Assembly (NCBI GenBank): GCA_016190445.1
Contig: JACPQL010000041.1
Location: 215-64,214, forward strand
Reading direction: 5' to 3'
Origin: Chloroflexota bacterium
Lineage (GTDB): Bacteria > Chloroflexota > Dehalococcoidia > Lucifugimonadales > JACPQL01
Length of the DNA: 64,000 bases
Below the pieces are notes generated by a model. That model ran no database searches and was not told the origin of the DNA. It saw only the letters and a list, made by a program, of their open reading frames with translations. Positions 23,590-63,114 of this stretch are shown here, in pieces (position 1 is the stretch's first letter; every line of letters starts with the position of its first letter). The position numbers and the translations under genes are program-made.

Positions 23590-23591
23590 GA

Positions 23592-23957
23592 ACCCTCACC
23601 CCCTGTATCCCCCGCTCCCTTACCAAGGGAGCGGGGGCAGGAAGTAAGGAAGCTGGGGGATACCCCCAGACCCCCAGGCAAGGGGGCTCCGCCCCCTTAC
23701 CAATCCCCCTGAACTATGCAGTGAAACTCTGAGATACTACACTAGGGGGTGTTCGGGAAAACCCTCACCCCCTGTATCCCCCGCTCCCTTACCAAGGGAG
23801 CGGGGGCAGGAATTAAGGAAGCTGGGGGATACCCCCAGACCCCCAGGCAAGGGGGCTCCGCCCCCTTACCAATCCCCCGGAACTATGCAGTGAAACTCTG
23901 AGATACCACACTAGGGGGTGTTCGGGAAAACCCTCACCCCCTGTATCCCCCGCTCCC
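23592..23957. repeat. Tandem direct repeat, 169-bp unit, two full copies plus a partial third
   Basis: Units start at 23592, 23761 and 23930; the two full copies differ at only a few positions; internal hairpins CCCCCGCTCCCTTACCAAGGGAGCGGGGG and CTGGGGGATACCCCCAG. Confidence 0.92.
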
Positions 23958-24017
23958 GCACACGGGCTTTGCCCCAAAACTGTCACTACTGTGAGAATAG
24001 GCCTGGCGGGCCTGGGA

Positions 24018-47575: not shown

Positions 47576-47709
47576 GCTCTCCCTCCTCGCACGGATTAGC
47601 CACGCAGAGCGCCTCTCGTTCGCCGTCACCGTACCACAGAGGGGCCGCCGGCGGCCAGTGCTTGAACAGGGACAGCCGGTAGGGTAGTATCGCCATGCGA
47701 GTAAGTGCT

Positions 47710-48621
47710 ATGCCAAAAGACCTTCTCTCCATCGCCGACCTGTCCTACGAGGAGTTCGACCGCCTTCTGACACGGGGCCGCCAGCTCAAGGCCGGAGCCC
47801 AGTGCCAGGCCCTCCGGGGCAAGACGGTGGCCATGCTCTTCGAGAAACCGTCCCTGCGGACCAGGGTCAGCTTCGACATCGCGGTCCATCATCTGGGCGG
47901 ACACCCCCTCTACCTGGGAAAAGATGAAGTGGGCCTGGGACAGCGAGAGCCGGTGGCGGACGTGGCCCGGGTGCTGGAGCGGTACGTCCAGGGCGTTGTG
48001 GCCCGCGTCTTCAGCCACGCCTCGCTGGAGGAGCTGGCACGCGCCGCCTCGGTGCCGGTGATCAATGCCCTCTCTGACCGGGAGCACCCCTGCCAGGCAC
48101 TCGCGGACCTGATGACGGTGCAGGAGAGACGAGGGAAGCTGGGGGGGCTCACCTTCGCCTATGTTGGTGATGGCAACAACGTGGCCCACAGCTTGGCCCT
48201 GGGCTGCGCCCTGGCTGGCGCCAGCTTTGTCATAGCATCGCCCTCAGGCTACGGGCTCCCTGGACCTTTGATGGAGCGTGCCAGCAAGCTGGCCCGGTCG
48301 CCCGGCGCCCAGGTGCACGCTTGCTCAGAGCCGGCAGAGGCAGTCCGTGGCGCCGACGTGGTGTACACTGACGTGTGGACCAGCATGGGCCAGGAGGCAG
48401 AGGCCCAGCAGCGCCGTCGGGTCTTCGCCGGGTTCCAGGTGGACGGCGTCCTGCTGGGCCGGGCCGCGCCCGGTGCGCTGTTCATGCACCCGATGCCGGC
48501 GCACTACGGGGAAGAGGTGGCCCCCGGTATGCTGGACCACCCCCAGTCCGTCGCCTACGACCAGGCAGAGAACCGCCTCCACATTCAGAAGGCTATCCTT
48601 GATCTGCTGCTAGGGCCATGA
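47710..48621 (+). CDS. argF: Ornithine carbamoyltransferase
   Basis: FEKPSLRT, HPCQALAD, GDGNNV, YTDVWTSMGQE, QAENR. Confidence 0.95.
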   Translation: MPKDLLSIADLSYEEFDRLLTRGRQLKAGAQCQALRGKTVAMLFEKPSLRTRVSFDIAVHHLGGHPLYLGKDEVGLGQREPVADVARVLERYVQGVVARVFSHASLEELARAASVPVINALSDREHPCQALADLMTVQERRGKLGGLTFAYVGDGNNVAHSLALGCALAGASFVIASPSGYGLPGPLMERASKLARSPGAQVHACSEPAEAVRGADVVYTDVWTSMGQEAEAQQRRRVFAGFQVDGVLLGRAAPGALFMHPMPAHYGEEVAPGMLDHPQSVAYDQAENRLHIQKAILDLLLGP

Positions 48622-48785
48622 AATCATCACAGAATCCCTCACCCCCTGTGTCCCCCTCTCCCTTGCCAAGGGAGAGGGGGACGAAAAGGCATCTGGGGGA
48701 CACCCCCAGACCCCCGTCAGAGGGGGCAAAGCCCCCTCTGAACTCCCCCAACCTGAGCCCTGCGGCACGTTCCAAGCACTTCACG
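48617..48785. mobile_element. MITE-like repeat at the argF/der junction
   Basis: CATGAA...TTCACG ends; internal hairpins homologous to 62957-63114 (inverted) and to the 23592 tandem unit. Confidence 0.75.
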
Positions 48786-50165
48786 GCGACCCTCCCCGCT
48801 CCGGGGGGGGCCTTGCCTGTGGTGGCCATAGTGGGGCGGCCCAACGTCGGCAAGTCCAGCCTGTTCAACCGGCTGCTGGGCCAGCGAAGGGCCATCGTGG
48901 CTGACTTGCCTGGTACCACCCGGGACCGCGTGACCGGGGAGGCCACGTGGGGTGGCCGGACGCTCACGATGGTGGATACGGGTGGCCTGGTAGTGGAGCC
49001 GGACTCCAGCCTGTGGGCCCAGGTGAAGCTTCAGGTGGAGGCCGCCATGGCGGAGGCGGATGTCATCATCTTCGTCACCGACGCCGCCCAGGGGATTATG
49101 CCGGGAGACCTGCAGATCGCTGACCTGCTGCGGCGCTCCGGCAAGCCTGTTGTGCTGGCCGCTAACAAGGTGGACAACCCTCGCAGGGACCTGCTGGCCC
49201 TGGAGCTGTACGAGCTGGGCCTGGGCGACCCCGTACCTGTGAGCGCCTATCACAACCTGGGTATTGACGACCTAGTGGCCAGCGTGCTGGCAGCTTTGCC
49301 GCGGCCCTTTATGGAGGTGGAAGCTGCGAAGGACATTCTTCACCTGGCCATTGTAGGCCGCACCAACGTGGGCAAGTCCATGCTCCTGAACGCCATTCTG
49401 GGTGAGGAGCGGGCCATAGTGAACGAGATGCCAGGTACGACCCGGGATGCCCTGGACACCCCATTCCGCTACGGCGACCAGGCGATGGTGCTGATAGACA
49501 CGGCAGGCATCAGGCGCAGGGGGCACATCCAGCCCGGGGTGGAGCAGTTCAGCGTGCTGCGGGCACTGGACGCCGTCCGACGCTGCGATGTGGCGCTCGT
49601 GGTGCTGGATGCCTCGGAGCTCGCCACAGCCCAGGACCTGCACGTCGCGGGGGTGGTGGTGGAGTCGTTCAAGGGCATGGTAGTGGTGGTCAACAAGTGG
49701 GACATGGCTCCAGAGCTGGAGCTGGATGCGGCAGAGGTGCGGCAGTCGCTCCTGGAGAGACTGAAGTTCATGCCTCACGCGCCCATCCGGTTCGCCTCGG
49801 CGCTGCGTCGGGAGGGCATCTCGGAGGTGTTGGATGCCTGCATGGACGTTTACCGGGACCGCATGCGCTGGATACCCCATGGCCACCTTCAGAAGGTGGT
49901 GATGGAGGCGGCGAGCCGCCACCTGCCCCCCAAGCAGGGGAGCCGGGTGCTTCGCATTCGGGGAGTGCGCCAGGAGGGGGTCAACCCGCCCTCCTTCACA
50001 TTTTTCATAAACAACCCGGACCTGGCCCACTTTTCCTACCAGCGGTACCTGGAGAACGCCCTGCGTCGTGCCTTCGGATTCCGCGGCTCCAGGCTGCGGA
50101 TGGAGTTCCGAGGGCGGCAGGCCAGCCGGGTGGGTGGGCAGGGGCGGGGGAAGGGTCTGACGTAA
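48618..50165 (+). CDS. der: Ribosome biogenesis GTPase Der (EngA); start uncertain (48618 or TTG ~48813)
   Basis: Two G domains (GRPNVGKS/DTGG/NKVD and GRTNVGKS/DTAG/NKWD); der-plsY-gpsA synteny. Confidence 0.93.
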   Translation: MKSSQNPSPPVSPSPLPRERGTKRHLGDTPRPPSEGAKPPLNSPNLSPAARSKHFTATLPAPGGALPVVAIVGRPNVGKSSLFNRLLGQRRAIVADLPGTTRDRVTGEATWGGRTLTMVDTGGLVVEPDSSLWAQVKLQVEAAMAEADVIIFVTDAAQGIMPGDLQIADLLRRSGKPVVLAANKVDNPRRDLLALELYELGLGDPVPVSAYHNLGIDDLVASVLAALPRPFMEVEAAKDILHLAIVGRTNVGKSMLLNAILGEERAIVNEMPGTTRDALDTPFRYGDQAMVLIDTAGIRRRGHIQPGVEQFSVLRALDAVRRCDVALVVLDASELATAQDLHVAGVVVESFKGMVVVVNKWDMAPELELDAAEVRQSLLERLKFMPHAPIRFASALRREGISEVLDACMDVYRDRMRWIPHGHLQKVVMEAASRHLPPKQGSRVLRIRGVRQEGVNPPSFTFFINNPDLAHFSYQRYLENALRRAFGFRGSRLRMEFRGRQASRVGGQGRGKGLT

Positions 50166-62956: not shown

Positions 62957-63114
62957 CATGAAGCTATCCCAAGTTTCGTGCATGGGGGAGTGCAGAGGGG
63001 GGAAACCCCCTCTGCCGGGGTCTGGGGGTGTCCCCCAGATTGCACTTTTCTCCCCCACTCCCTTACCAAGGGAGCGGGGGACACAGGGGGTGAGGGTTTT
63101 GGAACAGCTTCATG
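62957..63114. mobile_element. 158-bp MITE-like element bounded by CATG
   Basis: CATGAAGCTATCCCAA ... TTGGAACAGCTTCATG (14/16 inverted match) around G/C-rich hairpins. Confidence 0.78.

What the first reader, a model, noticed from the sequence alone, without database searches (positions are those of the whole stretch)
48617..48830. Mobile palindromic element inserted in frame at the der start codon, supplying the argF stop and a 55-aa extension
Seen: a 169-bp repeat, homologous to the CATG-bounded element at 62957-63114, runs from CATG (48617) to CACG (48785). Its left end forms ATGA, which is both the argF stop and an ATG in frame with der, and the frame stays open throughout. Removing the element plus one 4-bp copy deletes exactly 165 nt and restores ATG-GCG-ACC... 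= MATLPAPGGALPVVAIVGRPNVGKS, a plausible native N-terminus. Inference: insertion at CATG duplicated the start, the downstream copy decayed to ACG, and an essential GTPase now carries a repeat-derived Pro-rich peptide. This parallels Rickettsia palindromic elements in coding sequences.
Basis: partly seen in the sequence, partly recalled or inferred. Interest (0 to 1): 0.72.

Follow-up and report, generated by a model that had tools for sequence, protein, structure and literature searches.

The report
Mobile hairpin repeat reshapes Der start
A copy of a small hairpin-forming repeat, present about 120 times in this groundwater bacterium's genome, sits between two housekeeping genes, completes the first gene's stop codon and offers an in-frame start that would add about 45-55 repeat-encoded residues to the ribosome-assembly enzyme Der; this kind of event is already known, and whether the longer protein is really made is roughly a coin toss.

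Summary
The repeat, the ATGA stop/start overlap, the open 515-aa frame and the 165-nt arithmetic are real.

The element is an old copy of a ~120-copy, three-hairpin MITE. Its terminal repeats match IS5- and IS1182-family elements in relatives.

Homology stops at 48751 and the right arm is barely recognisable. The family duplicates 2-3 bp, not CATG. So 'ACG is the decayed start' is only one of three histories.

Completing a stop (22 of 190 ends) and an open frame into a gene (19 of 120 copies) are routine here.

ATG48618 is the only in-frame ATG, and the rival TTG48813 lies in a -27 kcal hairpin. But ATG48618 lacks the Shine-Dalgarno motif that 54 of 54 native overlaps carry. The long form is about 45% likely.

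Clearer cases lie elsewhere in this genome (MTAP, phosphoglucomutase, nucleoside hydrolase). This is a new member of a known kind (RPE, MIRU, REP2). The scan noted similar start-donating repeats on other genomes before.

The parts
47695..48621 (+). argF, ornithine carbamoyltransferase; its TGA stop (48619-21) uses the first two bases of the element
   Evidence: TIGR00658 and NF001986 above cut-off; normal C-terminal length against 27 relatives
48618..48620 (+). ATG formed by target AT plus the element's first G; overlaps the argF stop (ATGA); only in-frame ATG upstream of the Der G1 domain; no SD (-1.8 kcal/mol), low opening cost (9.1)
48620..48635 (+). left terminal inverted repeat, decayed, of IS5/IS1182 type
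   Evidence: 11.4 bits on the family arm matrix; matching ends on IS elements L115 and L149
48636..48749 (+). conserved MITE core with three GC hairpins (48650-82, 48692-710, 48717-41); reads PSPPVSPSPLPRERG...LGDTPRPP...NSP in the der frame
48750..48812 (+). 21 unresolved codons (NLSPAARSKHFTATLPAPGGA): decayed right arm plus native leader, or wholly native Der leader; candidate element ends at 48772 and 48782; ACG at 48783
   Evidence: codon model uninformative
48782..48821 (+). predicted -27.4 kcal/mol RNA hairpin covering the SD-like G run (48803-10), TTG48813 and GTG48819
   Evidence: z only -1.3 against shuffles
48813..50165 (+). der (EngA) ribosome-biogenesis GTPase body, 450 aa from TTG, 515 aa from ATG48618; one full-length copy in the assembly
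62957..63114 (-). intact two-arm copy of the same MITE (152 nt plus AT duplication)

Best explanation
A decayed copy of a ~120-copy three-hairpin repeat, likely a non-autonomous element once moved by an IS5/IS1182-type transposase, sits at the argF-der junction and completes the argF stop, and Der is likely made from the overlapping ATG48618 as a 515-aa protein with a predicted disordered, Pro-rich leader. Steps: (1) insertion at a 2-3-bp target at the argF stop (inferred from family ends and target duplications); (2) loss or decay of the right arm and of der's own start codon (shown: no right arm above family scores, no in-frame ATG between the element and G1; how it was lost is unresolved); (3) ribosomes ending argF would re-start at the overlapping ATG and read through the hairpins in frame (inferred); (4) about 44 (up to 55) repeat-coded residues would be tolerated as a floppy N-terminal tail (predicted). 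Ribosomes passing in frame would also melt the hairpin over TTG48813, so both forms could be made. This is a tolerated accident filtered by selection, not a new function.
For: Family, ends and target duplications. IS elements with matching ends in relatives: L115 (929 bp, IS5 family, arm scores 25.0/19.3) and L149 (1491 bp, IS1182 family, 19.6/19.6), found among 60 transposase loci. No element at this junction in 29 of 29 relatives' der loci; argF lies next to der in 28 of 29. ATG48618 is the only in-frame ATG before G1. Its opening cost is 9.1 kcal/mol, below the 25th percentile of 250 genome starts; TTG48813 costs 28.7 (99th percentile 23.7; only 1 of 34 TTG starts is higher) and GTG48819 costs 21.3. 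The local hairpin is -27.4 against at most -13.3 in 27 relatives. A TTG start would leave no leader, seen in only 4 of 114 measurable homologues; relative L002 has TTG-Leu at the same position with an upstream ATG. NTGA argF/der overlaps exist in 3 of 27 relatives, and several relatives' der starts have weak or no SD. AlphaFold gives an intact Der fold from residue 68 and no structure for residues 1-60. Longer Der N-termini exist (NF002828 matched from position 38, Cmk-Der NF007071 from 270). The same family puts repeat sequence at the N-terminus of MTAP, phosphoglucomutase, nucleoside hydrolase and a HigA-like gene in this genome.
Against: ATG48618 has no SD (-1.8 kcal/mol), whereas none of 54 native NTGA-overlap starts in this genome is weaker than -2.5 (median -7.9), and the 3 relatives with an overlap all have one (-7.7 to -8.9). 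TTG48813 has an SD of -9.9, reached by 3.1% of random 15-mers. Open frames are ordinary: the 52 long cores keep on average 1.8 of 3 forward frames open, and 12 of the 17 copies in frame upstream of a gene leave that gene's own start intact. The TTG hairpin is not significant against shuffles (z -1.3). Element-supplied ATGs elsewhere have equally high opening costs (24-28.5), so the measure is crude. Low pLDDT of the leader partly reflects lack of aligned rows. No empty allele, RNA or peptide evidence was obtained.
Confidence: 0.45

Rival explanations
1. Translation rival: the repeat is simply intergenic. Der starts at TTG48813 (MPVVAIVG...) or GTG48819 using the G-run SD, the open frame through the repeat is chance, and ATG48618 is used little.
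For: SD -9.9/-10.1 at TTG/GTG against -1.8 at the ATG; 54 of 54 native overlap starts have an SD. TTG is 34 of 459 single-candidate starts. Open frames into genes occur at 19 of 120 copies. P0009 has an equally short N-terminus.
Against: SD and TTG lie in a -27.4 kcal/mol hairpin with opening cost above the 99th percentile, and no other upstream frame ends nearby to melt it. The last 10-21 codons resemble native leaders, implying the ancestral start lay upstream of TTG.
Confidence: 0.4
2. History rival A: the element is 163 nt (48620-48782), it duplicated the AT of der's own ATG, and the downstream copy decayed to ACG; 55 residues are new. Confidence is for this history only.
For: 48782 is the best-scoring right end (4.2 bits). 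AT duplications occur in 3 of 16 two-arm copies and one copy shows AT/AC. MAT... N-termini occur in homologues P0054 and P0113.
Against: The score is below all 19 real arms. The end lies 8-10 nt further out than in any of them. The empty allele lacks the argF stop and gives a ~50-nt overlap unlike 27 relatives, unless a second substitution is assumed. The restored ATG has no SD.
Confidence: 0.3
3. History rival B: the right arm, the native spacer and der's SD-ATG were deleted after insertion, so 48750-48812 is native Der leader and only about 44 codons are repeat-derived. Confidence is for this history only.
For: HMM match ends at 48751. The six best homologues have 17-22-residue leaders, and 26 of 27 rows of the sister clade have 16-34 (quick tree of 75 of 119 rows, SH-aLRT 92). 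Copies trimmed right up to a start codon exist on contig C7.
Against: The tree placement is not firmly supported. The codon model does not mark the 21 codons as coding. The weak arm-like end at 48782 would be chance.
Confidence: 0.45
4. History rival C: all 195 nt between the near-direct repeats GGGCCATG (48613-20) and GGGCCTTG (48808-15) is a composite of repeats, and der originally began ATG CCT GTG (MPVVAIVG). Confidence is for this history only.
For: 7 of 8 bases match. A pattern drawn from the LPAPGG hairpin hits 15 places, most of them copies of a second hairpin repeat.
Against: Post hoc. The family duplicates 2-3 bp. No ungapped copy of 48789-48812 exists at up to 4 mismatches. Resemblance of 48751-85 to another repeat module is not significant (9.4% of random segments). 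Nearest homologues have long leaders.
Confidence: 0.15

Closest known systems
Rickettsia palindromic elements (RPE; Ogata et al. 2000, as summarised in PMC2229807 and PMC10969869)
   Same: ~150-bp palindromic repeat with open frames fused in frame to conserved proteins; the RPE-bearing guanylate kinase was shown to be translated and active.
   Different: RPEs lie inside ORFs at high frequency (nearly half). Here no strictly internal insertion was found among 75 two-ended copies; fusions are at extreme 5' ends (5 of 120 copies) and untested. The sequence is GC-rich with IS5/IS1182-type ends; sequence homology to RPE was not tested.
Mycobacterial interspersed repetitive units (MIRU; passage in PMC12548453)
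   Same: Repeat inserted at start codons, with expression kept by translational coupling; matches the ATGA overlap at der and the stop 4 nt before an element ATG at MTAP and phosphoglucomutase.
   Different: A MIRU ORF ends overlapping the host start (-4 nt) and leaves the protein unchanged; here the repeat's codons would become part of the protein.
Neisseria REP2 (PMC3184786 section 11)
   Same: Repeat that carries a ribosome binding site and ATG in front of genes, as the 141-nt subfamily here does.
   Different: REP2 has no terminal inverted repeats and carries a promoter; the der copy supplies no SD.
Bacterial MITEs (Correia/NEMIS, ERIC, RUP, YPAL; PMC2229807)
   Same: Under 200 bp, terminal inverted repeats shared with IS elements, short target duplication, strong hairpins, mostly intergenic, occasional ORF fusions.
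   Different: GC-rich, modular three-hairpin core carried by several different terminal-repeat shells; no description in Dehalococcoidia turned up.

Membership tests
Bacterial MITE | short, non-coding for a transposase, multicopy | tested here: met
   150-155 nt in 13 of 16 two-arm copies; 120 copies
Bacterial MITE | terminal inverted repeats | tested here: met
   met for the family and for the left end of the der copy; the right end of the der copy itself is inconclusive
Bacterial MITE | target site duplication | tested here: met
   2 or 3 bp in 10 of 16 copies; not recognisable at the der copy
Bacterial MITE | ends shared with an autonomous IS | tested here: met
   L115 (IS5, NF033580), L149 (IS1182, NF033551) and, for the 141-nt subfamily, L113 (IS5, NF033581) in relatives; in the own genome the one IS1182 matches weakly at one end only
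Bacterial MITE | filled and empty sites between strains | tested here: inconclusive
   no close relative exists in the collections (best Der 65%); element absent at the junction in 29 of 29 order-level relatives; no empty joint listed in 4 runs
RPE-like in-frame fusion | open frame continuous with a conserved protein | tested here: met
RPE-like in-frame fusion | insertion between conserved coding sequence on both sides | tested here: not met
   at der the repeat precedes all conserved residues; only the nucleoside hydrolase copy lies after native codons (3) in frame
RPE-like in-frame fusion | fusion protein shown to be translated | not testable with these tools
   no proteomic or ribosome-profiling data available to these tools
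RPE proper | sequence homology to a Rickettsia RPE family | not tested
   no comparison run; host lineage and base composition differ
MIRU-like coupling | repeat ORF ends at or near the start used by the host gene | tested here: inconclusive
   not so at der (frame is continuous); at MTAP and phosphoglucomutase the frame from the native start ends 4 nt before an element ATG with SD -10.1/-11.3
Der/EngA GTPase | two GTPase domains plus C-terminal KH-like domain, TIGR03594 above cut-off | tested here: met
   498 bits against 306.7; PF14714 on P0001; model

The most novel reading that the evidence does not exclude
An undescribed IS5/IS1182-ended hairpin MITE family of Dehalococcoidia rewrites the N-termini of single-copy housekeeping proteins in this lineage. 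Der carries 44-55 repeat-coded residues by ATGA coupling; nucleoside hydrolase carries about 86 after codon 3; MTAP and phosphoglucomutase are rescued by a built-in stop, SD and ATG re-initiation cassette that swaps their first 4-5 residues for MVE(R/G)V(S/F)(N/H)HP(A/V).
Probability: 0.35. Interest if true: 0.55.

Novelty: new member of a known kind. Interest (0 to 1): 0.3.

Why it matters
If the long form is made, it is a further natural case of a mobile repeat donating a peptide to a ribosome-assembly GTPase (essential in model bacteria; recalled), outside Rickettsia. It would show how a genome with about 120 insertions keeps operons working through translational coupling. Practically, start sites next to these repeats are easily mis-called in Dehalococcoidia genomes. 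The phenomenon is described (RPE, MIRU, REP2, ERIC/YPAL fusions), the organism is uncultured, and the leader is predicted to be an inert tail, so the gain is modest.

Tried and rejected
Empty-site search. No genome closer than order level; best Der homologue 65%; metagenome scan with Der found no relative; a junction pattern gave 5 hits, all unrelated. Public contigs showed no joint skipping the element, but only 15 of 104 joints were listed and contigs drop rare variants. No RNA holder listed (no evidence either way).

Rfam. Only sub-threshold hairpin matches.

Origin of 48750-48812. No second genomic copy, module resemblance not significant, codon model uninformative.

Mobilising enzyme in the own genome (81% complete). 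DDE_3, DUF559 and Y1_Tnp not found. Three small GIY-YIG genes are not flanked by this core as a unit. One IS1182 has poorly matching ends.

Generality of start donation. Not seen in 60 of 60 copies from five other genomes, 10 of 10 or 28 further non-self loci; in-frame cases there keep their own start. So I rejected the idea that the family is built to sit on start codons.

An early note of mine that no relative has an argF/der overlap was wrong and was corrected. The careful tree did not finish; the quick tree is used. A pattern search returned nothing.

Full report
Setting. The window lies on contig C38 of a 2.02-Mb, 81%-complete assembly. Homologues are labelled Dehalococcoidia or Chloroflexi, and the holders are groundwater metagenomes of one study. 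No genome closer than order level is held. The operon is argF-der-plsY-gpsA; argF lies beside der in 28 of 29 relatives' loci, so the junction is not a repeat-mediated misjoin.

Observation. argF ends at TGA 48619-21, and ATG48618 opens a 515-aa frame whose Der domain begins at residue 67. Public contigs join argF to the left part of the repeat in 4 of 4 runs and the right part to der in 3 of 4, without differences; none spans the whole repeat, but in run X1 three exact pieces tile it.

The element. It belongs to a family of about 120 copies (136 blastn loci; 120 at 30 bits or more) with a GC-rich three-hairpin core (z -6.67). Several terminal-repeat shells carry the same core. Two-arm copies are 150-155 nt in 13 of 16 cases and duplicate 2 or 3 bp in 10 of 16. 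Related sequence was found in 48 of 151 genomes of the order, own genome included. Among 60 transposase loci from relatives, arm matrices built here pick out both ends of L115 (929 bp, IS5 family) and L149 (1491 bp, IS1182 family), and the 141-nt subfamily matches L113 and others (IS5 family). The family is therefore a MITE of IS5/IS1182 type. The helper was not identified in this assembly.

Boundaries at der. The core is up to 90% identical to other copies and the left arm is recognisable (11.4 bits), but the profile match ends at 48751. The 19 other right arms end 23-25 nt after the core. Three reconstructions (165, 156 and 195 nt removed) all keep der in frame by construction, and all abolish the argF stop, extending argF to a TAG inside der. 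Among 27 relatives, three have a 4-nt NTGA overlap and none overlaps more. The six best homologues have 17-22 residues before the conserved motif, and the quick tree (75 of 119 rows) places this Der beside a clade with 16-34 in 26 of 27 rows (support 92). That fits the 21 codons after the core being native leader, with the right arm and old start deleted.

What is ordinary. The first one or two bases of an element complete a gene's stop at 22 of 190 located ends. 19 of 120 copies lie in a frame continuous with a gene, 17 at the 5' side, and 12 of those 17 genes keep their own start. The 52 long cores keep 1.8 of 3 forward frames open on average. The donated stop and the open frame therefore carry little weight.

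Which start. Using the genome's own 16S 3' end, ATG48618 has no SD (-1.8 kcal/mol) but is accessible (opening cost 9.1). TTG48813 and GTG48819 have SD -9.9 and -10.1 but lie in a -27.4 kcal/mol hairpin (costs 28.7 and 21.3; 99th percentile of 250 starts 23.7). ACG48783 has neither SD nor easy access. Against the ATG, none of 54 native NTGA overlaps in this genome lacks an SD. For it, several relatives' der starts have weak SDs, the contribution of the SD to coupling varies from gene to gene (PMC6728339, abstract), and coupling without an SD has been seen in vivo (PMC12548453, passage). A TTG start would give a leader-less N-terminus seen in 4 of 114 measurable homologues (the query and 5 mis-measured rows dropped from 120). 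The public call of 450 aa (P0001) comes from a contig of 6673 nt, the length of one that begins at 48700 and so lacks the ATG; it is uninformative. AlphaFold predicts an intact Der fold and no structure for residues 1-60 (few aligned rows there). I put the long form as main product at 0.45 and the TTG/GTG form at 0.4; both may be made.

Cleaner cases in the same genome. MTAP (C23:5528) and phosphoglucomutase (C23:11771) have both terminal repeats inserted after native codons 4-5. Excision restores MSEPKATVGIIGG and (TTG)STSLKPIKFGTDG, and no start codon lies between the element and the Pfam domain. The frame from the native start runs 40 and 49 codons and stops 4 nt before an element ATG with SD -10.1 and -11.3, which suggests re-initiation. 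Nucleoside hydrolase (C48:37798) has about 86 codons inserted in frame after MPK. A HigA-like gene (C37:21) looks similar but lies at a contig end. MTAP, phosphoglucomutase and the hydrolase are single-copy in the assembly; orthologues occur in 24 of 30 (MTAP) and 29 of 30 (phosphoglucomutase) relatives, with short native N-termini. This is 3 of 38 ends of the 141-nt subfamily here, but 0 of 60, 0 of 10 and 0 of 28 sampled in other genomes. It looks like survival of lucky insertions, and these genes could also be weakly expressed or dead.

Known context. In-frame fusions of repeats to proteins are reviewed for RPE, ERIC, YPAL and Correia elements (PMC2229807, parts 1-2 of 3 of the text read; PMC10969869, passages). 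REP2 supplies RBS and ATG (PMC3184786, passages and section 11). MIRUs insert at start codons and couple translation (PMC12548453, passages). PMC11893778 (Ssn nucleases) was seen as abstract and outline only. No supplements were read; lists of MITEs in supplements (for example of PMC11602168, seen only as a search listing) may include this family. Searches listed no paper on such repeats in Dehalococcoidia, but one search showed only 20 of 810 hits. Earlier notes of this scan report start-donating hairpin repeats in several other genomes; they are unchecked leads, not support.

Verdict. A real, old MITE insertion at the argF-der junction with a possible but unproven N-terminal fusion. New member of a known kind; interest 0.3.

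Noticed in passing
L037 (G000:C23:5527-6516) and L048 (G000:C23:11769-13346): MTAP and phosphoglucomutase genes interrupted at codons 4-5 by the 141-nt subfamily; the native-start frame stops 4 nt before an element SD-ATG that is in frame with the gene body.
   Followed up: yes
L047 (G000:C48:36867-38108, minus strand): Nucleoside hydrolase with about 86 repeat-coded codons in frame after MPK, both terminal repeats and a TAA duplication visible; the cleanest RPE-like case in the genome.
   Followed up: partly
G000:C7:77014 and C7:107241: Copies trimmed of one arm abut start codons (one of a SelB-like gene, label recalled from its motif) and appear to supply their SD.
   Followed up: no
L060 (G018) and L069 (G019), upstream of phosphoglucomutase: Element-like ends lie just upstream of the same gene in two other families, there with the native start kept; possible insertion hot spot.
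   Followed up: no
protein P0008: A Der homologue called with a 71-residue leader beginning with a peptide (ALRHAQGER) resembling another hairpin module of these genomes; likely a repeat at its der 5' region.
   Followed up: no
L090 (G000:C47:112172-113455): IS1182-family transposase, apparently frameshifted near its 3' end, inserted inside a different hairpin repeat.
   Followed up: partly
L092 (G000:C27:17842-21057): Small GIY-YIG nuclease gene embedded among tandem tRNA-like repeats.
   Followed up: no
window 23590-23960 (G000:C38:23805-24176): Tandem array of about 2.5 copies of the hairpin element.
   Followed up: no
G000:C41:1-162: 3' end of a transposase-like ORF (IS630-like, identification recalled) directly followed by an element copy; its end motif recurs as a further terminal-repeat shell.
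   Followed up: no
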